From: Minisyncoccia bacterium
GTDB lineage: Bacteria; Patescibacteriota; Minisyncoccia; Phycocordibacterales; UBA918
Direction of reading: 5' to 3'
DNA: 24,301 nucleotides
Assembly (NCBI GenBank): GCA_041752435.1
Contig: JBGSWM010000031.1
Span: 1-24,301, forward strand
This document shows positions 2,395-20,402 of the stretch, one piece after another. Below the pieces are notes generated by a model that was not told where the DNA came from, did not search any database, and saw only the letters and a program-made list of their open reading frames with translations. A program made the translations under genes and the position numbers. Positions within the stretch are counted from its first letter, which is position 1, and each line of letters starts with the position of its first letter.

Positions 2395-5300
2395 ATGACA
2401 AAAAATAGTTATCAAACAAAATATAATGAGCGAAAGACAGGGAGTGAGTCCCGCTTCTTCGGGGTGTTGCTACCGTCTTTTTTGTTAGCTATCCTTTGTT
2501 TGGCTATTTTCCTACTCCCAGCACTGGCTCCTCAAGCTGAGGCGGCGATTGGGACGGGTGGGGCGCTTTGTACGGCGCAAAGTAAGTCGGCCGGCACTTC
2601 GCTTTCTTGTTCACCAACTCTTGAGAGTTTTAATGTAGGTAATATCGCCGTGATGATTTTTGCCGGTAATAACACGGCGACAGTCGATGGTAACGATGGG
2701 TTACTTTCCTCAGTCACTGACGACAAAGGAAATACTTGGACTGTACAGCGGTGCTTCACCAATAGTCGCGGCTCGGCTGGTGCAGGTGCGACCACTTGTA
2801 TCGCGACCGCTAAGATAACTACTGAACTCGCTACTTCTGCCGGCAACAACATTACTGCTAACTTTTCTTCGATTACTGCCAAGTCAATGGTGGTTAAAGA
2901 GTTCACGGTCGATTCCGGTAATACCCTGGAGATAGCCGGAACCCCGCAGGACGACGCTCGACTGACTGATCCAATAAATTTAACTATCACAGGCTTAACT
3001 AGTGGGGAGTATCTATTTTTGCGTAGTGTCGCTATAGAGAGGACTGCCCCTGGCGCTTGGACATCAACCGCAGGCTTTTCATCAACTACTTGTAACGGAA
3101 CTTCAAATGGACTCAATGCTTCAAATATGGAGGTGTGTGGTGAGTATGTCATTGAGTCCAGTTCGACTGGTACCTCGAGTAACCCGACCGCTTCGGGAAA
3201 TGATAACGCCTCCATTTTCGTGGCCTTGTCTGAGGTAATCATTCCAGACTACTCTCTTGGCGGTTCTATCTATAGCGATGCGGGAATAAATAAGGCGACT
3301 GGTACGAAGACGGTTAAGATAGTGATTGCTACGACTACTACCAGCGTCTTTTCGACCACCTCTGATGCTCTCGGGAACTGGTCTCTACCCATCACTGACT
3401 TTTCTGCCATTACTACCGGTACCAAGGTCTTAGTCTACGTTGATGGTGAAACAAATTTTAAAGCCAGTACTTTTACTAAGCTGGCTGATAATACGACGTC
3501 AGTGACAAATCTGGATCTCTATCACAACCGAGCAATCTTGCGCGATGAAATCGATACAGCTACCACCACTACTTTGGGTGAGTTGACCTTTTATGATGGT
3601 GCTGACGATAGTGATATTCGCTATATTTTCTCTGGCACTAGCTCAATGAATGTGCTCTCAGGAACAGAGTTGTATATTAAAGCGGGGACCACCTTCTCAC
3701 CGGAAGGTACGGTGACGGTCGAGGGTAATGGTTTAGCCAACTCGACCGATGGTTCACTTTATGTCGGGGGTGTATATACTCCTAGTGGCACCACCACCTT
3801 GGCGGGGAATTTGGTTTTTGCTAGTAGCAGTACCTACTATACTAACGTCGAAGGATTTGTCTTTACGGCCACGACTACGGGCAAGTATGTCTATGCCCCA
3901 AGTAGTACTTCGCTCGGGCCGATAGTCTTTAATGGTGTTGGTGGCGGTTGGCTTATGGCGACAGCGGCTGAGGTATCTGATTTCACCATTACCAACGGAA
4001 CCGTCGTCGGTCCGATTGGGACACTGACTATCAGTGGTGACTTTATTAACAATGGTACTTATATCGAGCAGGGTGGTGAACTGGTTTTTAGTGGTGCGGA
4101 TTTAACTCTTTCCGGTGAGGGTAACTTTGGTAACCTGACCTTAGCAGCCGCAGCTGCAGCTGATTTGGATCTAATCACCCACGCTGATTTCAACGTTTCA
4201 GTGGTGGCCGTAGATCAAGTTAATGGCATTGTCTATTTTGGTACCGGTATTGAAGGTTCACCGACGGAGTTCGCCTCAATTTATCGCTGTGATTTAACCA
4301 CTGCTTGTGACGCCTCGGGCGACTTCAGTGAAGTCTTCACTGCCTCGGCCGATAGAGCTATCTCGGCTTTAGTTATTGATGAGATTAACGCTCGTCTGTA
4401 TCTCGGTACCGGCAGTGGTGAGGGAGCAATTTATGGTTGCAACTTGTCTTCTGATTGTAACGCCTCCGGCGACTTTGTCTTGGCTTATGATACCACTGAG
4501 TCAGTCATTAGTTCGTTTTTGATTGATGATGTTAATCAGGTTTTATATGTCGGGACCGAGAGTGGTGGCATCATCTACCGCTGTCTTCTCTCGACCGGTT
4601 GTGACGCCTCGGGCGACTTCACGACCGCCTACGACACGACCGAAACTAGTATCGAGTCAATGGTGATTGATGTGGAAAGGGGAATATTGTTTGTCGGCAC
4701 TAGTCCAAGCGGCATCATCTACCGCTGTCTCCTCAGTACCGGCTGCGACGCCTCGGGTGACTTCACGACCGCCTACGACACAGCTGAGAACGCGATTGAG
4801 TCGATGGTGATTGATACTAGTAAAGATAGACTCTATGCTGGTGGATCAGGTGATTTGTTTGTTTGCTCGCTATCTTCTCTTTGCGACGTATCTGGTGATT
4901 TTGCTAACCCAGATCTTAGTGGTGCTGATCTTAATTATCAATCTATGGTGGTGGCTCCAGCGGGAGTATTGTTTATTGGGGAGGTTGATTTGGTGCGCTA
5001 TGTCGATGTGGCTACTTCGTCACTAACAGTCCTTGACGATATTAGCGTGCAAAACCTGACCATTGGTACTTATGCCTCGGCTACTCTGCCGGCGTCGATG
5101 ACGGTTGGCGGTAGCTACACCAATAACGGCACAGTGACGGCGGCTGGCACTACTACTTTCTCTGGATTTACCCAAGTAGCTACAGGGACTCTCACTGGTA
5201 CCTCAGCTTTAGGGGGTGTGACTTTTTCTGGGTTAGCTAACTTTCAATCAGGTAACGCTACTTCCACCTTCACGGAGACAGGGGTAATTTGGGATACTGG

Positions 5301-8300
5301 CAGTAGTAGTGACGAATTAATTGGTAACGTAGTAGATGAGACCACTCTTTATACTGTCGGCTTTTGTACCGGGTGTGGTAGTGCGGGCGGGGAAGCTATT
5401 TTGGTTGCCGCTTACGATAAAAATAGTGGTGCACTCCTGTGGTCGACCACGACTGACCCGAGTACAGGTGATGATCGGGGGACTGGTATCGCGGTGGATA
5501 ATACCTACGCCTACGTGTGGGGTGAGTGGTTTGACGGAGCGGACGACGCCTTGTATCTAATGGCGCTTAATAAAAGTACGGGGGACTTTGTCTGGAGTAC
5601 GAGCCAAGATCCTTCTTCGGGAACAGATATAGGTGCCTCGATTGTGGTCGACGGCGATTATCTGTACGCCAATGGCGCCTGTGCTACTTGTGGAGCGGGA
5701 TCGTCAGCTACTTTTTACACTGCTCAGTTTACTAAGGACAACGGTACCCTTCTTTGGTCTACCACCACAGACCCGAGTTCATCTTTGGATATTGCTACTG
5801 GTATCTATACCGATGAGAGATATGTCTACACAATGGGCTACTGCATCGGTTGCGGGGATAAGGCTTTGGCGGCGGTGTACACCATAGCACTCGTCAAGGA
5901 GACGGGGGCTTTGGTGTGGCAAAAATACGCCGACCCAACTTTTTTAAATGATTTAGGTTATCGTATAACTGGAGACGAAGACACGGTGTATGTGACGGCC
6001 TACTGTTTTGGTTGCAACAGCTCAAATAAATTTGCGTACTACACAATAGCCTATGATAAGGTTAACGGTACGGAACGCTGGGCCACCACCACTGACCCGG
6101 GTGAAGACGACCGGGCGCGGGGTATAGCGGTTGATGATGAGTATGTCTACCTGTCTGGTTATTGTACCAACTGTGTAGTCGTTAGTTCGACGGCTATCTA
6201 TGTATTAGTTCTTGATAAAGCGACCGGGGCTTTTGTACAGAGTGCCAGTACCAGTGCAGCTATTGGTGAAAGTCGCGGTGAGGCGATGGCTTATGACGGA
6301 CACTACTTATATGTCTCTGGCGTCTGTGTCGACTGTGGGCAATATGAAGGCGAAGCTGCTTATACGGTAAAGTTTGACAAGACAAATCTCGCGCTCGTGA
6401 CGGGGGATAGCAGTCTGACTTTTGGCGCCAACGCCTCAACCAGTGCTCTTACTATTGCTGCTATTTCGACTAATATTGTCTCAGCGTCAGATCATTTATC
6501 GGTAGCCGGGGATTTCTATAATGAAAATATTTTCAGTGCCCCTAGTGGTAATTTCATAGTTGGAGGTAATTTTACAAATTATGGCAATTTCTCGGCTAAC
6601 GATGGTGTGGTGAAGATAGACTCGGCTTATGAGCAAATTATTGAGATAGATAGTACGGCCTCGTCGACTTTTTATGATATTTCTCTAAGTGGGCCTGGTC
6701 AGAAGACTTTTGCGAGTATTTTTACCACTGCTTATGACTCTTCAGAGACTTCGATTAGCTCACTAGCAATCGACGCTGCAAATGGAGTTCTCTACGCTGG
6801 TGGGTCTGGGAGCAGTATCATCTACCGCTGCCTTCTCACTACAGGATGTGATGCGAGTGAGGATTTTACGACCGCGTATGATACTAGCGAATCATCCGTT
6901 GATTCCCTTGTGATAGATTCTACAAACGGCGTCCTCTATGCGGGTACAGGACGCAGTTTTGGAGATGGTGGTATCATCTACCGCTGCCTTCTCTCGACTG
7001 GCTGCGACGCAAGTGGAGATTTTGCGGTGGCGTACAATACCACTCAAGCATATATTTATTCACTGGCTATCGACGCCACAAATGGTGTCCTTTATGCGGG
7101 AACTTACTCTGGCGGCATCATCTACCGCTGTCTCCTCAGTACCGGCTGCGACGCCTCGGGTGATTTCACGACGGCGTATGATACTTCCGAAACATATATT
7201 CATTCACTGGCTATCGACGCCACAAACAACGTCCTCTACGCCGGTAGTGGCAACAGCGGCATCATCTACCGCTGTCTCCTCAGTACCGGCTGCGACGCCT
7301 CGGGTGATTTCACGACGGCGTATGATACTTCAGAGGCATCAATCTATTCGCTTATAGTAGACTCTGTAAATGGTACTCTTTATGTTGGGGGCGGCAGCGG
7401 CATCATCTATCGCTGCCTACTTTCTACCGAATGTGATGGAAGCAGAGCTCTAACTGAAGTATATGATAATGCGTTGGGTATAAACATCAATAACTTCACC
7501 ATTGATTCTTTAGGTAGTACTTTGTATGCGGGTGTATCAGGGGGCAACACTTACCGTTTCCAAAACGGTTTTGACTTTGGTACCAGCGCTACTACAAGTG
7601 ACCTTGTTATTGCCGAAGGCCATGCCATGGTGGCACCTATAGAAATAGAGATTACGGGGGATTATATAAATGAAGGATTCTTTAATGCTGGTGGCGGTAC
7701 TACTACCTTCTCTGGTACTGGAGAGCAAACCGCCACTGGCACCATGACCGGTACCAGCGCGTTTGCAAATCTGGCGATTACTAACACGGCCGCGACGACG
7801 ACTTTTGGTAGCGCTCTCACTGTCAGTGACACCTTGACCGCATTCCCCGGGACAAAGATCGCTCTACAGTCTGGGGCCACCACCACTGTAGCCAATCTCA
7901 ATTTAGCAGGCTCCAGTACCTCACCCGTCACCTTTGGGGCAACAGAGACCACTTCACCAGCCAACTTTGTTTTGACTGGATCTTCGGCCGTGACTTATAC
8001 CACCATTCAAAATAACCATGCCTGTGGCTCAACTGGTGGGGTGATTGATGTTTTACTGGGTAATAATACTGATGGCGGAGATACTGAATGTTGGATTATT
8101 GTTCCTAGTAATCCGCAAATTGCTATGACGGAAAGTCAAACCTTCTTCATTGGTCAGACGGCAACACCTCTTAATGTAATAACTGTTTATGATGCAATCA
8201 ATCCTGTCATTACGGCGGTAGATGATATTAGGATTACTATTGCTACCAGCACCACTAACTTTCTCTGGGCCGATACTGGTTTTACTTTCCTAAACATCAG

Positions 8301-9624
8301 TGGCACAGCAGCCGGTAAGGTCGATTTGGTACCAACTTATACGGATGGATTTGCGACGGTAGTAATTGATGTCACTAGTGATTTTGAAAGCGAAGACACC
8401 TTAATAATTAGCGGTCTAACGGCCACCAGTTTTTCGTCCGTATCAACTACAACATCCGCACTGGCTCTACATCTAGATGGTGACAGTGTCGGTTCACCAA
8501 TCGCTACTTCAACTGAGACTTTTCGGATCACTGGTTTACTGTCTGTGGTTGACCATGACGCTGGGCAAACCGATAATCAATTTAGTTGGCAAAATCAGGA
8601 CGACGTAACACTCTTCTCGTTTAGCCTAGAGGCTACGGGTGAGACGGCGACTGTGACGGATATGGTGGTAACTCTCAGTGGTCTACAAAAGATCGACGGG
8701 ACAAATATCTCTGACTTTAAGCTCTATGAAGACATAAACAGTGATGGCGAACTCGATGGTGGAGACGCCTTAATCGAGAGTGGTGGCATCCTAAATATTA
8801 ATGGACAGTACGGAGCTATCACTTTCAGTACCGATGTCTTGGCCACTACTACGACTAACTACATTGTAACTGGTGATACCACGGCGATCACAAACGGAGC
8901 CGCTGTCTACTTCTCGCTACCGGCTTTGGGAGTGTCGGCGACTGGTTCAATCTCAGGCTCAGACATCACGGTGTTGAGTACCGTGACTAACATTCAGCAT
9001 CTACGTAATAACAGTAGTGGCGGTGGTTCAAGCCAAATCGGTGGCGCGACGCCACCGGGAGCTACGACCGAGACGGGCGGGGGAAGCGGTGGTGGTGATG
9101 AGGTGGGGCAGGAAACAGATGGTGACAATATTGCTCCGGATGCCGACTTCTACGCTCCGACCGGTACAAGTACCCCAAATCAGTGGACTAATCCAGAGAA
9201 TGTCTATGCTTCTGATGGTTTGGCGGCCACGGCGGCGACGAATAATTATGAGCAGACCTTTATCAACTTTGGCTTCAATATCCCGGGCAGCAACGTCATT
9301 GATGGTATTAGTGTCAAGCTCGATGCGTCTGGTTCAACGGCGGCAGGGACAATCGATGTCGCTCTGTCTTGGAACGGGGGAAGTTCATTTACTTCGGCTA
9401 AAGCCACCCCAACGCTAAGTGATAGCGATGTGGTGTACACGGTTGGTGGTGGAGCGGATACTTGGGGCCGCAGCTGGTCGGCGGGTGAGTTTGCTCCGAG
9501 CGAGTTTATCCTTCGGGTGACAGCCAATACGAGCAGCAACACGCTACTTCTAGACGCCCTTGAGGTACGTGTCTTCCACCGCGCCGCTGGTGGAGGTGGC
9601 GGGGGTGGGGGAGGAATAATCTAG
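2395..9624 (+). CDS. Giant (2409 aa) exported surface protein/putative adhesin. Beta-solenoid-like scaffold with three inserted beta-propellers, a Ca-binding-like DxNxDG motif and a Gly-rich C-terminus.
   Basis: Uninterrupted ORF. Basic n-region, hydrophobic stretch and AEA|A signal-peptidase-like site near aa 50. T/S/G-rich, with recurring GDF.N.G.F...GT..FSG units and internal repeats. DINSDGELDGGD motif near the C-terminus; ends AAGGGGGGGGGII*. Confidence 0.85.
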   Translation: MTKNSYQTKYNERKTGSESRFFGVLLPSFLLAILCLAIFLLPALAPQAEAAIGTGGALCTAQSKSAGTSLSCSPTLESFNVGNIAVMIFAGNNTATVDGNDGLLSSVTDDKGNTWTVQRCFTNSRGSAGAGATTCIATAKITTELATSAGNNITANFSSITAKSMVVKEFTVDSGNTLEIAGTPQDDARLTDPINLTITGLTSGEYLFLRSVAIERTAPGAWTSTAGFSSTTCNGTSNGLNASNMEVCGEYVIESSSTGTSSNPTASGNDNASIFVALSEVIIPDYSLGGSIYSDAGINKATGTKTVKIVIATTTTSVFSTTSDALGNWSLPITDFSAITTGTKVLVYVDGETNFKASTFTKLADNTTSVTNLDLYHNRAILRDEIDTATTTTLGELTFYDGADDSDIRYIFSGTSSMNVLSGTELYIKAGTTFSPEGTVTVEGNGLANSTDGSLYVGGVYTPSGTTTLAGNLVFASSSTYYTNVEGFVFTATTTGKYVYAPSSTSLGPIVFNGVGGGWLMATAAEVSDFTITNGTVVGPIGTLTISGDFINNGTYIEQGGELVFSGADLTLSGEGNFGNLTLAAAAAADLDLITHADFNVSVVAVDQVNGIVYFGTGIEGSPTEFASIYRCDLTTACDASGDFSEVFTASADRAISALVIDEINARLYLGTGSGEGAIYGCNLSSDCNASGDFVLAYDTTESVISSFLIDDVNQVLYVGTESGGIIYRCLLSTGCDASGDFTTAYDTTETSIESMVIDVERGILFVGTSPSGIIYRCLLSTGCDASGDFTTAYDTAENAIESMVIDTSKDRLYAGGSGDLFVCSLSSLCDVSGDFANPDLSGADLNYQSMVVAPAGVLFIGEVDLVRYVDVATSSLTVLDDISVQNLTIGTYASATLPASMTVGGSYTNNGTVTAAGTTTFSGFTQVATGTLTGTSALGGVTFSGLANFQSGNATSTFTETGVIWDTGSSSDELIGNVVDETTLYTVGFCTGCGSAGGEAILVAAYDKNSGALLWSTTTDPSTGDDRGTGIAVDNTYAYVWGEWFDGADDALYLMALNKSTGDFVWSTSQDPSSGTDIGASIVVDGDYLYANGACATCGAGSSATFYTAQFTKDNGTLLWSTTTDPSSSLDIATGIYTDERYVYTMGYCIGCGDKALAAVYTIALVKETGALVWQKYADPTFLNDLGYRITGDEDTVYVTAYCFGCNSSNKFAYYTIAYDKVNGTERWATTTDPGEDDRARGIAVDDEYVYLSGYCTNCVVVSSTAIYVLVLDKATGAFVQSASTSAAIGESRGEAMAYDGHYLYVSGVCVDCGQYEGEAAYTVKFDKTNLALVTGDSSLTFGANASTSALTIAAISTNIVSASDHLSVAGDFYNENIFSAPSGNFIVGGNFTNYGNFSANDGVVKIDSAYEQIIEIDSTASSTFYDISLSGPGQKTFASIFTTAYDSSETSISSLAIDAANGVLYAGGSGSSIIYRCLLTTGCDASEDFTTAYDTSESSVDSLVIDSTNGVLYAGTGRSFGDGGIIYRCLLSTGCDASGDFAVAYNTTQAYIYSLAIDATNGVLYAGTYSGGIIYRCLLSTGCDASGDFTTAYDTSETYIHSLAIDATNNVLYAGSGNSGIIYRCLLSTGCDASGDFTTAYDTSEASIYSLIVDSVNGTLYVGGGSGIIYRCLLSTECDGSRALTEVYDNALGININNFTIDSLGSTLYAGVSGGNTYRFQNGFDFGTSATTSDLVIAEGHAMVAPIEIEITGDYINEGFFNAGGGTTTFSGTGEQTATGTMTGTSAFANLAITNTAATTTFGSALTVSDTLTAFPGTKIALQSGATTTVANLNLAGSSTSPVTFGATETTSPANFVLTGSSAVTYTTIQNNHACGSTGGVIDVLLGNNTDGGDTECWIIVPSNPQIAMTESQTFFIGQTATPLNVITVYDAINPVITAVDDIRITIATSTTNFLWADTGFTFLNISGTAAGKVDLVPTYTDGFATVVIDVTSDFESEDTLIISGLTATSFSSVSTTTSALALHLDGDSVGSPIATSTETFRITGLLSVVDHDAGQTDNQFSWQNQDDVTLFSFSLEATGETATVTDMVVTLSGLQKIDGTNISDFKLYEDINSDGELDGGDALIESGGILNINGQYGAITFSTDVLATTTTNYIVTGDTTAITNGAAVYFSLPALGVSATGSISGSDITVLSTVTNIQHLRNNSSGGGSSQIGGATPPGATTETGGGSGGGDEVGQETDGDNIAPDADFYAPTGTSTPNQWTNPENVYASDGLAATAATNNYEQTFINFGFNIPGSNVIDGISVKLDASGSTAAGTIDVALSWNGGSSFTSAKATPTLSDSDVVYTVGGGADTWGRSWSAGEFAPSEFILRVTANTSSNTLLLDALEVRVFHRAAGGGGGGGGGII
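4189..5007 (+). repeat. Intragenic ~48-aa repeat cluster 1 (about six propeller-like blades, five with C-x5-C)
   Basis: Consensus I.S..ID....LY.G....IYRC.L...CDASGDF..AYDT.E; near-identical DNA copies begin at about 4567 and 4711. Confidence 0.85.
5311..6381 (+). repeat. Intragenic PQQ-like propeller repeat (seven blades, six with CxxC)
   Basis: Repeating D..G.A..D..Y.Y..G.CxxC......Y.....K..G..W.T.TDP; CTGC, CATC, CIGC, CFGC, CTNC, CVDC at equivalent positions. Confidence 0.8.
6721..7560 (+). repeat. Intragenic ~48-aa repeat cluster 2 (about six blades, five with C-x5-C)
   Basis: Same consensus as cluster 1. A 76-bp perfect direct repeat at 7112-7187 and 7256-7331 gives a 144-bp period. 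Confidence 0.88.
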
Positions 9625-9686: not shown

Positions 9687-9736
9687 GGACACATAGACTA
9701 TTTTCTCCCCGTGAGGTCGAAACTAGTCTTGTGTCC
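9687..9736. other. Long imperfect intergenic hairpin
   Basis: ggacaca (9687-93) pairs with tgtgtcc (9730-36); agacta (9695-9700) pairs with tagtct (9724-29); tttc/gaaa continues the stem. Confidence 0.55.
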
Positions 9737-9738
9737 GG

Positions 9739-9815
9739 TCCAGCGATTTGCCCTAGGACGGGGCAAATCGGGACGTAACTTCGCAATAATCGCTACGCTC
9801 ATTTGCTCATTTATC
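9739..9815. repeat. Structured intergenic repeat, copy 1 (77 bp)
   Basis: 67/77 identical to 9884-9960. Stem cgatttgccc/gggcaaatcg; 32-nt core ttcgcaataatcgctacgctcatttgctcatt at 9780-9811. Confidence 0.9.
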
Positions 9816-9883
9816 CCTTGGGGGTCGAATCCAGCTAAGCGCGCATCATCACATCGGTGTATATATGTAGTTTGACCGCGTGT

Positions 9884-9960
9884 TCCAGCGATTTGGTCTA
9901 GGAATGACCAAATCGGGAACTAAATTCGCAATAATCGCTACGCTCATTTGCTCATTCATC
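9884..9960. repeat. Structured intergenic repeat, copy 2 (77 bp)
   Basis: Stem cgatttggtc/gaccaaatcg; identical 32-nt core at 9925-9956; 145 bp offset from copy 1. Confidence 0.9.
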
Positions 9961-10056
9961 TGCTTAAGTTATACACAAATAGAAGAAGAAAAGTAGTAAA
10001 AATCAGTTTATTTTTGCTAAAATTACAGTTAGAAATTAATTATTAAAAAACAGAGT

Positions 10057-10758
10057 ATGAACACACAAAATATTATTAAAGCCTCAAGTCAAGCCTTCAT
10101 AGCGGCTGTCTTGGCGGTGCTGTTGGCGGCTGGCAGTTTCTTCTTGATTGAACCACAGGTCGGACAGGCGGTTACGAGCGGTCCGTTCACCATCACGACT
10201 ACTATCACTGACGAAATTTCTTTCTTGGTGGGAGCAGCTAATGTGACTGCCACGGGTAGTATCAACGGTATTACTGGTGGTCAGGCCAATGGATCTACTA
10301 CCGTATCAGTCCGGACCAACAGTAATACTGGCTACACTATGTCCATTGCTTTCTATAACAATGGAACTGACAACGCTATGCTCGGTAACAATTCGCTCAG
10401 TCAATCTATCCGTGACTACCCAGCCTCTAGTACTGAGCCAACCTATCTCTTTGACACCTCAAGTACATCAGCGGTCTTTGCTTACACTGTTAGTGCTCTA
10501 GACGATACAGATATCGCTCGCGCTTTCTTGGATAATGGTATCGGTGCCTGTAATGAACTAGCCGGGGCTTATACAGCAGATCGTTGTTGGATGGAACCGC
10601 AGGTGGCGGGCTATGAGATTATCGATCGAACTTCGTCAGCTCCAACCGGTGCTACAAGTACCATCAGTTTCCGTATCCTCGTTCCAAATAACCCAGTACC
10701 AGGACTAGTAGCTGACGTTTATACGGCTACTGCAACCTTGACGGCGGTTAACCAATAG
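10057..10758 (+). CDS. Secreted beta-sandwich subunit, WxL-/pilin-like (putative major subunit)
   Basis: Signal peptide ending GQA|V; motif STTVSVRTNSNTGYTMSI; one Cys pair (C-x11-CW); C-terminal strand YTATATLTA; no anchor. Paralogous to 11849..12619. Confidence 0.6.
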   Translation: MNTQNIIKASSQAFIAAVLAVLLAAGSFFLIEPQVGQAVTSGPFTITTTITDEISFLVGAANVTATGSINGITGGQANGSTTVSVRTNSNTGYTMSIAFYNNGTDNAMLGNNSLSQSIRDYPASSTEPTYLFDTSSTSAVFAYTVSALDDTDIARAFLDNGIGACNELAGAYTADRCWMEPQVAGYEIIDRTSSAPTGATSTISFRILVPNNPVPGLVADVYTATATLTAVNQ

Positions 10759-19501: not shown

Positions 19502-19703
19502 CTGGGTTAGCTCACACGGGCTTAGTTTGAGGGCTGTTTGGGGAGTACCGCAGGTAACTAAAGGAGACTGCCGTGAGCGCATTGCTAAGGTGAGTGATAA
19601 TTCTATGTCGCTTATTGCCTGGTCAATCGTTTGGTTGGGTTCGAACGCCGGAAGAGAATCCCGCTGTAGCGGCCAGTCAGAAGGTATGCTATCTTTGTCG
19701 GAT

Positions 19704-20327
19704 ATGACAGTAACATTGCCAATCAAAGAAAGAAGTAGCGAAAATAATAAGACCAATCAAAAGGAGTCCATACCAGCGGTCGTCTACGGTCCAAAGCAGA
19801 CACCGGTCTCGGTAGTAGTTAATCGTAAGGAATTTGAAAAGCTGTTTAAGGTAGCCGGTGAGTCAACCGTTATTGAGTTGACTGGTTTAAAGTCGCCAAT
19901 CAGTTCACTGGTTAAGGAAGTGACCTTCTCACCTTTGCAGGGGGGAATAATCCATGTTGATTTCTATGCTCTAGAGTCTGGTAAAGAAATTGAAACTCAT
20001 GTGCCGCTTAGTTTTGTCAACGAGTCTCCAGCCGTTAAGTTAGGAGCTGTCGTTAATAAGGTGATGCAAGAGGTCATGGTGACTTGTCAGCCGGCTGATT
20101 TGCCAGCTCATATTGATGTTGATTTAAGTCTTTTGACGACTGTTGAATCGCAGATTCACATCTCGGATATTGTTGTCCCTAAGGGGGTGGTGATAAAAGA
20201 AGACGGTAAAAATGTCGTTGCTATAGTAGAGATGATTACTGAAGAGGTAGAAGCCGCGCCGGTTATGGATATTGCTGATATTCCGGTGGAGAAGAAGGGT
20301 AAGGAGGAGGAAGCTGCCGCTGCCTAG
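19704..20327 (+). CDS. rplY: 50S ribosomal protein L25 (long/Ctc form)
   Basis: IPAVVYGP, IIHVDFY, VPLSFVNESPAVKLG, LPAHIDVDLS..IHISDI. Start MTVTLPIKER at 19704; the ORF-track extension to 19527 is non-homologous. Confidence 0.93.
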   Translation: MTVTLPIKERSSENNKTNQKESIPAVVYGPKQTPVSVVVNRKEFEKLFKVAGESTVIELTGLKSPISSLVKEVTFSPLQGGIIHVDFYALESGKEIETHVPLSFVNESPAVKLGAVVNKVMQEVMVTCQPADLPAHIDVDLSLLTTVESQIHISDIVVPKGVVIKEDGKNVVAIVEMITEEVEAAPVMDIADIPVEKKGKEEEAAAA

Positions 20328-20349
20328 GTCGTTCGCTCTGACTAGACAG

Positions 20350-20390
20350 AAACACAGGCCTTTGGTCGAATTGACCAAAGGCCTGTGTTT
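20350..20390 (+). terminator. Perfect 18-bp inverted repeat downstream of rplY (probable terminator)
   Basis: aaacacaggcctttggtc-gaatt-gaccaaaggcctgtgttt. Confidence 0.7.
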
Positions 20391-20402
20391 GTGGTTGGGG
20401 TT

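What the first reader, a model, noticed from the sequence alone, without database searches (positions are those of the whole stretch)
9738..9960. Twin 77-bp intergenic element with three compensatory base-pair changes: candidate new structured RNA or ssDNA element
Seen: the copies differ at 10 of 77 positions, yet pairing is kept. Stem cgatttg-CC-c/g-GG-caaatcg becomes cgatttg-GT-c/g-AC-caaatcg (two covarying pairs). Below a 2-nt AG bulge, Gtcc/ggaC becomes Ttcc/ggaA (third pair). Two more differences fall in the loop. A 32-nt core is invariant and contains gctcattt-gctcatt. Covariation between just two copies points to selection on structure, and the invariant core suggests a protein-binding site. 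The element lies between the adhesin gene and the pilin-like operon. Inference: a cis-regulatory RNA, small RNA or REP/MITE-like mobile hairpin. I do not recognise it as a known family.
Basis: partly seen in the sequence, partly recalled or inferred. Interest (0 to 1): 0.75.

Follow-up and report, generated by a model that had tools for sequence, protein, structure and literature searches.

The report
Mobile twin-hairpin DNA repeat, Kaiserbacteria
The two look-alike stretches are copies of a small, apparently uncatalogued repeat scattered through the genomes of ultra-small (CPR) bacteria; it folds as single-stranded DNA and behaves like a jumping element with one exact end, not like a switch for the neighbouring pilus genes.

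Summary
The twin and its compensatory changes are real, but it is not a local pair. It belongs to a dispersed family: 9 copies in this genome, 23-38 in four relatives, present in 78 of 121 genus members, no Rfam match. The unit is 76-84 nt and folds on the window's minus strand as two hairpins. The 5' end is exact, at the foot of the head. 28 of 186 copies have flank duplications ending there (0-3 by chance), 28 of 30 orthologous loci lack it, and one genome has a 152-nt identical copy at two unlinked sites. Both orientations occur beside unrelated genes, which argues against cis-regulation. Best reading: a non-autonomous single-stranded-DNA mobile element that works like REP/BIME repeats and is moved in trans by a nick-and-join enzyme. 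No partner enzyme was found (RAYT, GIY-YIG and reverse transcriptase tested). This scan noted this family and sister families before on other DNA.

The parts
9882..9958 (-). Copy 2, full unit: head hairpin (5') plus body-A hairpin (3')
   Evidence: best covariance-model hit, 102.5 bits (it is in the training set)
9921..9958 (-). Head of copy 2 (38 nt): 5-bp basal stem, tandem G.A/A.G, 4-bp stem, internal loop, second tandem G.A, GCGTAGC mini-hairpin tip; the 5' end of the element is 9958
9882..9920 (-).
9738..9813 (-). Copy 1, full unit; slightly decayed (one A.G mismatch in the head's basal stem at 9779, one lost pair at the body foot)
9776..9813 (-). Head of copy 1; 5' end at 9813
9738..9774 (-). 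Body-A hairpin of copy 1
9814..9850 (-). Half of a sister module (TTCGAC..GGGA hairpin) cut exactly at the 5' end of copy 1; the same junction recurs in L003, L007, L030, L044 and contig C55
9706..9721 (-). Diverged downstream duplicate (12 of 16 identical) of the 16 nt at 9814-9829 that precede copy 1; fits the family's duplication geometry but is too short to prove alone
   Evidence: family statistics
9687..9736 (-). Intact sister body hairpin with tandem G.A; relatives at C28, C55, C67, C13
   Evidence: DNA z-score -5.7
9959..9967 (-). First 9 nt of a sister head (TTAAGCAGA), broken off at the 5' end of copy 2; intact at the same spot in G010
9969..9977 (+). Host motif TTATACACA (DnaA-box-like, from my own knowledge of the consensus), upstream of 21 of 30 pilin-gene orthologues; not part of the element, marks where the inserted block ends

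Best explanation
A non-autonomous mobile repeat of about 76-84 nt that acts as folded single-stranded DNA (window minus strand). SHOWN: a constant head hairpin with two tandem G.A steps and a GCGNAGC/GCGNNAGC tip; interchangeable body hairpins; an exact 5' end at the foot of the head; a loose 3' end; insertion polymorphism; recent copies at unlinked loci; tandem arrays; flank duplications ending at the 5' end. INFERRED: a trans-acting nick-and-join enzyme, most simply a HUH/Y1-type enzyme forming a 5'-phosphotyrosine, binds the head's shape, cuts at its foot and joins that 5' end to a 3'-OH elsewhere (sites mostly end in GT, AT, GA or TT). The 3' end is made by a looser second cut or by repair, which would give body swapping, 3' carry-over, tandem [head+flank] copies and duplications of roughly 10-100 nt. 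Copies survive where the host is unharmed: at stop codons (the head's first bases can supply TAA/TGA), behind terminators, before start codons, or inside gene and tRNA starts when the duplication restores them. The window holds a nest of such events. Covariation reflects selection on the replicating element, as in REPINs. Odds by step: mobile repeat 0.9; DNA rather than RNA as the folded form 0.7; HUH-type chemistry about 0.45.
For: Copy number and spread. Structure: (14 of 25 pairs change on both sides). Strand: (head G.T 67 versus A.C 13; G.A 179/184 and A.G 184/184; on the plus strand these would be C.T mismatches). DNA signature: loops are GNA or GNNA, including non-GNRA GATA, GCCA and GGTA; PMC13037366 reports that only GNA triloops form the DNA mini-hairpin (GCGTAGC Tm about 70 C) while r(GCGAAAGC) melts at 39 C. 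Exact 5' end: position -2 pairs in 92% (50% shuffled), -3 does not; duplication signal peaks at that offset; 28 of 186 versus 0-3 in controls. Gene ends abut the 5' end in 29 of 117 and the 3' end in 0 of 102. Recent copies: 152 nt identical at two unlinked G041 loci, sharing only 1 nt upstream. Filled and empty sites: pilin locus, DGR terminator, smc stop codon. tRNA-Glu and tRNA-Ser 5' ends are duplicated in other families. Precedent for the chemistry and for tandem amplification: PMC3333891.
Against: No partner enzyme was found: no head near 14 RAYT or 12 GIY-YIG loci; RAYTs carry their own different palindromes; no mobile gene recognised by eye among 305 neighbours; no cargo gene between head and duplicate. 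IS200/IS605 elements cut at a distance from the hairpin, use a guide tetranucleotide, make no direct repeats and prefer the lagging strand; here the end is at the hairpin foot, duplications occur, and no skew bias was seen (55:60, a weak test). Only about 5 of 22 duplications show a remnant of a second element upstream, so tandem amplification explains a minority. Loop counts are biased by the search patterns. The strand signal in the body is weak (G.T 48 versus A.C 32). Many of the 50 near-identical pairs come from one subfamily.
Confidence: 0.5

Rival explanations
1. Same DNA fold, but spread by host repair or replication, not a dedicated transposase. The stable, SSB-excluding head serves as a priming or ligation substrate; a folded fragment is joined to a broken or nascent 3'-OH, and its free 3' end re-primes on the opposite strand (direct duplication) or on its own strand (inverted copy of the flank).
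For: No linked mobile enzyme. Mini-hairpins mark the G4 primase site and ssiA and bind SSB poorly (PMC13037366). Weak target preference. Site-matched inverted flank copies: L008, and a subfamily whose own far arm pairs better (mean 8.8) than other members' arms (5.5; n=10). Most duplications lack a second head.
Against: It does not say how a fragment with a base-exact 5' end is released. Inverted copies are rare (5 of 145, two of them apparently 5S rRNA stems). Copy number varies from none found to 38 among genus members that should share core repair genes.
Confidence: 0.2
2. A short retro-element: the minus strand is an RNA with a processed 5' end and a read-through 3' end, copied in by target-primed reverse transcription, which gives variable-length target duplications.
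For: The geometry X-element-X-Y with variable length is what target-primed reverse transcription gives (own knowledge). Tandem G.A and GNRA loops also occur in RNA. Three DGR cassettes carry a copy right behind their terminator-like hairpin.
Against: No RVT_1 match in this genome (86% complete) or in G061 (99% complete, 23 copies). RT is in 38 of 120 genus members, mostly DGR-like, and is not associated with the element (28/77 versus 10/43, p=0.16). The GNA triloops and non-GNRA tetraloops follow the DNA rule. Other DGR cassettes are empty at that site.
Confidence: 0.15
3. Old mobile remnants now kept by the host for a structural job at gene borders (transcript-end protection, supercoil-driven cruciform, replication restart). 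This is compatible with a mobile origin.
For: Copies within one genome are only 74-87% alike yet keep their pairs. Some sites (smc stop, 5S rRNA end, efp start) are occupied in many species. These genomes are under about 1.2 Mb and gene-dense.
Against: The same sites are empty or hold other modules in close relatives. No orientation rule. A third of genus members had no match.
Confidence: 0.1
4. A cis-regulatory RNA or small RNA controlling the adhesin or pilin-like operon.
For: It sits between the two genes, and the body stem folds on the plus strand too.
Against: 28 of 30 orthologous loci lack the head. The conserved fold is antisense to both genes. Neighbours elsewhere are unrelated and in all orientations: 38, 28, 21 and 15. 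The promoter-side motif lies downstream of the element.
Confidence: 0.05

Closest known systems
REP / BIME / REPIN elements mobilised by RAYT (TnpA-REP); PMC3333891, PMC3116915, PMC6006769
   Same: Short intergenic hairpin repeats, gene-less, lineage-limited, mosaic and tandem arrays, nested insertion, compensatory changes, bulged stems, probable single-stranded DNA recognition.
   Different: No 5' GTAG tetranucleotide; not an inverted doublet; not found beside any RAYT; the fold rests on tandem G.A pairs and a mini-hairpin; exact end at the hairpin foot; long flank duplications.
CGTC-tagged REPs, including Rickettsia RPE-4/RPE-6 and Neisseria dRS3 (PMC3733652)
   Same: Palindromic repeats for which no dedicated transposase was found.
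   Different: Those are single 8-9 bp stems with 4-5 nt loops, a CGTC tag and a CCA tail, mostly head-to-head dimers; this is a 76-84 nt two-hairpin unit without the tag.
IS200/IS605 ends (IS608, ISDra2) and their non-autonomous derivatives
   Same: Strand-specific imperfect hairpins, one active strand, no terminal inverted repeats.
   Different: No fixed 4-5 nt target, end at the hairpin foot, loose 3' end, direct duplications present, no lagging-strand bias detected.
d(GCGNAGC)/d(GCGNNAGC) DNA mini-hairpins of the phage G4 origin, ssiA and the N4 promoter (PMC13037366)
   Same: The tip of the head matches the motif exactly, loop rule included.
   Different: Here it crowns a dispersed chromosomal repeat; no match in viral contigs, phages or plasmids.
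Bacterial MITEs (Correia, RUP, ERIC), recalled from memory
   Same: Small, non-autonomous, hairpin-forming, intergenic.
   Different: No fixed terminal inverted repeats and no fixed short (TA-type) target duplication.

Membership tests
REP/REPIN-RAYT | [quoted passage not shown] | tested here: not met
   Bases before the stem are unconserved apart from an RW bias; definition from PMC6006769
REP/REPIN-RAYT | Copies flank a RAYT gene (REPtron) | tested here: not met
   No head at 14 RAYT loci of five copy-rich genomes or at the three Y1_Tnp loci of G000; these carry other palindromes
REP/REPIN-RAYT | Unit is an inverted doublet of two REPs | tested here: not met
   Unit is head plus an unrelated body; the twins are direct repeats
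REP/REPIN-RAYT | Dispersed extragenic hairpin repeat with compensatory change and tandem or nested clusters | tested here: met
REP/REPIN-RAYT | Bound and cut as single-stranded DNA by a HUH Y1 enzyme | not testable with these tools
   needs biochemistry
CGTC-tagged REP | Terminal CGTC/TGTC tag, 8-9 bp stem, CCA tail | tested here: not met
   Element ends lack the tag; in bodies that begin TGTC/CGTC these bases are paired inside the stem
IS200/IS605 ends | Fixed tetra/pentanucleotide target 5' of the left end | tested here: not met
   Most common preceding trinucleotide is 19 of 184
IS200/IS605 ends | No flanking direct repeats | tested here: not met
   28 of 186 have junction-anchored duplications
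IS200/IS605 ends | Lagging-strand template preference | tested here: inconclusive
   Local GC skew 55:60; the skew is confounded by gene strand
Classical MITE | Fixed terminal inverted repeats and fixed short target duplication | tested here: not met
Rfam structured RNA | Match to a curated model | tested here: not met
   No gathering-level hit; best E 0.43, chance level
DNA mini-hairpin motif | GC-GNA-GC or GC-GNNA-GC | tested here: met
   (sequence match only; stability not measured here)
RT-mobilised retro-element | Cognate reverse transcriptase in carriers | tested here: not met
   a divergent RT below the Pfam threshold is not excluded

The most novel reading that the evidence does not exclude
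A new class of single-stranded-DNA mobile element, read by an as yet unknown enzyme through a tandem-G.A / mini-hairpin shape rather than a sequence tag, joined by its hairpin foot to almost any 3' end, and able to land inside essential gene and tRNA starts because the reaction re-copies the interrupted flank. Sister families in Paceibacteria share the same tip and may use the same machinery.
Probability: 0.3. Interest if true: 0.8.

Novelty: new variant of a known kind. Interest (0 to 1): 0.55.

Why it matters
Streamlined CPR genomes are generally thought to be poor in repeats (own knowledge), yet this lineage carries up to about 40 copies of a structured element per megabase. It is a natural case of a conserved non-canonical DNA fold (tandem G.A plus GNA triloop) shown by covariation. 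The base-exact 5' end gives a defined substrate for finding the enzyme, which would bear on how REP-like repeats without a dedicated transposase spread. A short DNA tag that is nicked and joined at a fixed position could also be a tool. In practice it explains repeated false 'regulatory RNA' or 'operator' calls in these genomes.

Tried and rejected
Rfam at both thresholds: nothing. Promoter and terminator scan: nothing above chance. RAYT and GIY-YIG as linked partners: rejected. Reverse transcriptase: not associated; the three DGR-linked copies are insertions behind a terminator-like hairpin. An autonomous version with cargo genes: none among 157 heads with long flanks or 305 neighbours read by eye. 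Viral contigs, phages and plasmids: no match. Replication-strand bias: none seen, weak test. Splint-type pairing of target and body: none beyond -2. Presence/absence profiling for the enzyme was dropped because the GAGCG..AGCGA tip also occurs in genomes without this family, partly at chance level. Sequencing runs: no RNA holder listed; DNA contigs were fragmentary and no record spanned the locus. Five literature searches aimed at the element or its motif found no description; the library lacks most subscription papers. The 3' distance count had a script error and was redone.

Full report
Observation. The two stem covariations are exact. The third uses the base just 5' of the 77-nt match. They lie in the 432-nt gap between a 2409-aa adhesin-like gene (2395-9624) and a 233-aa pilin-like gene (10057-10758), both on the plus strand. 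Rfam gives nothing.

It is a family, not a twin. BLAST of the genome found further copies on seven other contigs. A covariance model built from 40 copies finds 9 here and 23-38 in four relatives. 78 of 121 genus members have a match. None of 16 genomes of other families matched by BLAST, and 6 genomes of other families in a sample of 149 from the order matched the model. An exact head pattern across GTDB returned records almost all labelled Kaiserbacteria, Paceibacteria, Patescibacteria or unnamed. There was no match in viral contigs, phages or plasmids.

Anatomy. Read on the minus strand, each unit is a 38-nt head followed by a body of about 39 nt. In the 40-copy alignment 96.1% of cells pair and 14 of 25 pairs change on both sides; no shuffle of 500 reaches this and slid controls give 33-50% (relatedness not corrected). 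Across 184 heads the pairs flanking the first tandem step take all four Watson-Crick forms, while G.A (179) and A.G (184) stay fixed. Wobble positions are G.T 67 times and A.C 13 times on the minus strand, so the minus strand is the folded one; on the plus strand the fixed steps would be C.T mismatches. The tip is GC-GTA-GC in both window copies. Elsewhere it is GNA or GNNA, including GATA, GCCA and GGTA (where counts are biased by my patterns, where the first loop base was left free and is G in 17 of 17). This is the rule for the extra-stable DNA mini-hairpin: only GNA triloops form it, GCGTAGC melts near 70 C, and the RNA form is far weaker (PMC13037366). The window itself holds an intact sister hairpin (9687-9736), half of another (9814-9850) and the first nine bases of a sister head (9959-9967).

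Boundaries. Position -2 before the AATGA start pairs with its partner in 92% of copies (50% after shuffling); position -3 does not. So the head stem begins at the element's first base. Independently, copies of the upstream flank recur downstream of the element and the signal peaks at that same offset: 28 of 186 against 0-3 in controls, aligned lengths 9-97 nt. Several restore what was interrupted, judging by the sequences: the starts of pth, dnaJ and, in this genome, trmD (contig C116), and the 5' ends of tRNA-Glu and tRNA-Ser in other families. Near-identical copies at unrelated sites share few bases upstream and mostly 76-84 downstream, though many belong to one subfamily. One genome has 152 identical bases at the ends of two unlinked genes, sharing one base upstream and carrying 3' flank along. 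Gene starts or stops touch the 5' end in 29 of 117 cases and the 3' end in 0 of 102.

Polymorphism and context. Upstream of the pilin-like gene, 28 of 30 orthologous loci lack the head; G115 has one copy resembling copy 2, and two more genomes hold sister modules. The site behind the smc stop codon and the site behind a DGR terminator-like hairpin are each filled in some genomes and empty in others. Flanking genes are unrelated and occur in all four orientations (38, 28, 21, 15). A host motif TTATACACA, found in 21 of 30 orthologues, lies between the element and the pilin gene. This excludes a regulator specific to the operon.

Mechanism. Shown: a structured, strand-specific, gene-less unit with an exact 5' end, a loose 3' end, body swapping, nesting, tandem arrays and flank duplication. 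Inferred: an enzyme recognises the head, cuts at its foot and joins that 5' end to a 3'-OH. This is the polarity of HUH/Y1 enzymes, and the rolling-circle-like model proposed for BIME amplification predicts tandem units with one exact junction (PMC3333891). About 5 of 22 duplications keep traces of a second element upstream, as that model needs; the rest do not, and look like insertion with re-copying of the flank. I put the whole HUH reading at 0.5, a repair or priming route at 0.2, a retro-element at 0.15, host co-option as the main cause at 0.1 and a cis-regulatory RNA at 0.05.

The enzyme was not found. Heads are absent from 14 RAYT and 12 GIY-YIG loci of copy-rich genomes, whose RAYTs carry their own palindromes. 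Reverse transcriptases are sporadic and mostly DGR-like, were not found in this genome or in a 99%-complete genome with 23 copies, and are not associated with the element (p=0.16). No cargo gene lies between any head and its duplicate. No replication-strand bias was seen, in a weak test.

Comparison and novelty. It works most like REP/BIME/REPIN elements but fails their defining tests: no GTAG tag, no inverted doublet, no adjacent RAYT. It also fails those of CGTC repeats, IS200/IS605 ends and classical MITEs. Only its tip is a known motif. Searches of the held literature found no description. Earlier notes of this scan report pieces of this family and several sister families in Paceibacteria; they are leads, not support. 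Verdict: a real, apparently undescribed variant of small structured mobile repeats, with good comparative evidence for a DNA fold and an exact end, and an unidentified mobiliser. Interest 0.55.

Noticed in passing
window 9969-9977 (+): TTATACACA, a DnaA-box-like word, sits 53-110 nt upstream of 21 of 30 orthologues of the pilin-like gene; only 12 such words occur in the whole genome. Possible replication-linked control of the pilus operon.
   Followed up: partly
window 10014-10026 (+): TG-n-TAAAAT, an extended -10-like promoter word for the pilin-like operon, downstream of the repeat block; seen by eye, not called by the scan.
   Followed up: no
G000 contigs C7, C30, C32, C34, C42, C48, C75, C77, C90, C91, C93: A second repeat family, mostly behind tRNA genes, shares the GA-GC-loop-GC-GA tip.
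   Followed up: partly
G000 C72:15365-16039 and C39 near 5741-5965; L174-L187: RAYT-like Y1 transposases of about 200-225 aa, each flanked by its own short palindrome, occur in all six genomes checked; C97 holds a broken IS200-type TnpA.
   Followed up: partly
G000 C116 (around 20-290): A family copy sits about 33 codons into a duplicate of the trmD start; a ParE-like gene and three accessory genes lie upstream, between khpA and trmD (names by eye).
   Followed up: partly
L291-L312: DGR-like cassettes of this genus have the accessory (avd-like) gene on the strand opposite to the RT, converging on the template repeat at a shared terminator-like hairpin.
   Followed up: no
L077, L083, L117, L120, L168, L171, L172: The end of what looks like the 5S rRNA gene is a hot spot holding different heads and a RAYT palindrome in different species.
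   Followed up: partly
L274, L282, L284, L287, L290 (G267): A variant in another family keeps the basal stem and body but replaces the mini-hairpin tip with a longer variable hairpin.
   Followed up: no
L079: An Acidimicrobiales MAG carries an exact head match; possibly a misbinned CPR contig, not tested.
   Followed up: no
window 20347-20393: Near-perfect 21-bp inverted repeat with a 5-nt loop just after the stop of the ORF at 19527-20327; probably a terminator.
   Followed up: no
window 4279-4770 and 6805-7436: About 144-nt repeats inside the 2409-aa adhesin-like gene.
   Followed up: no
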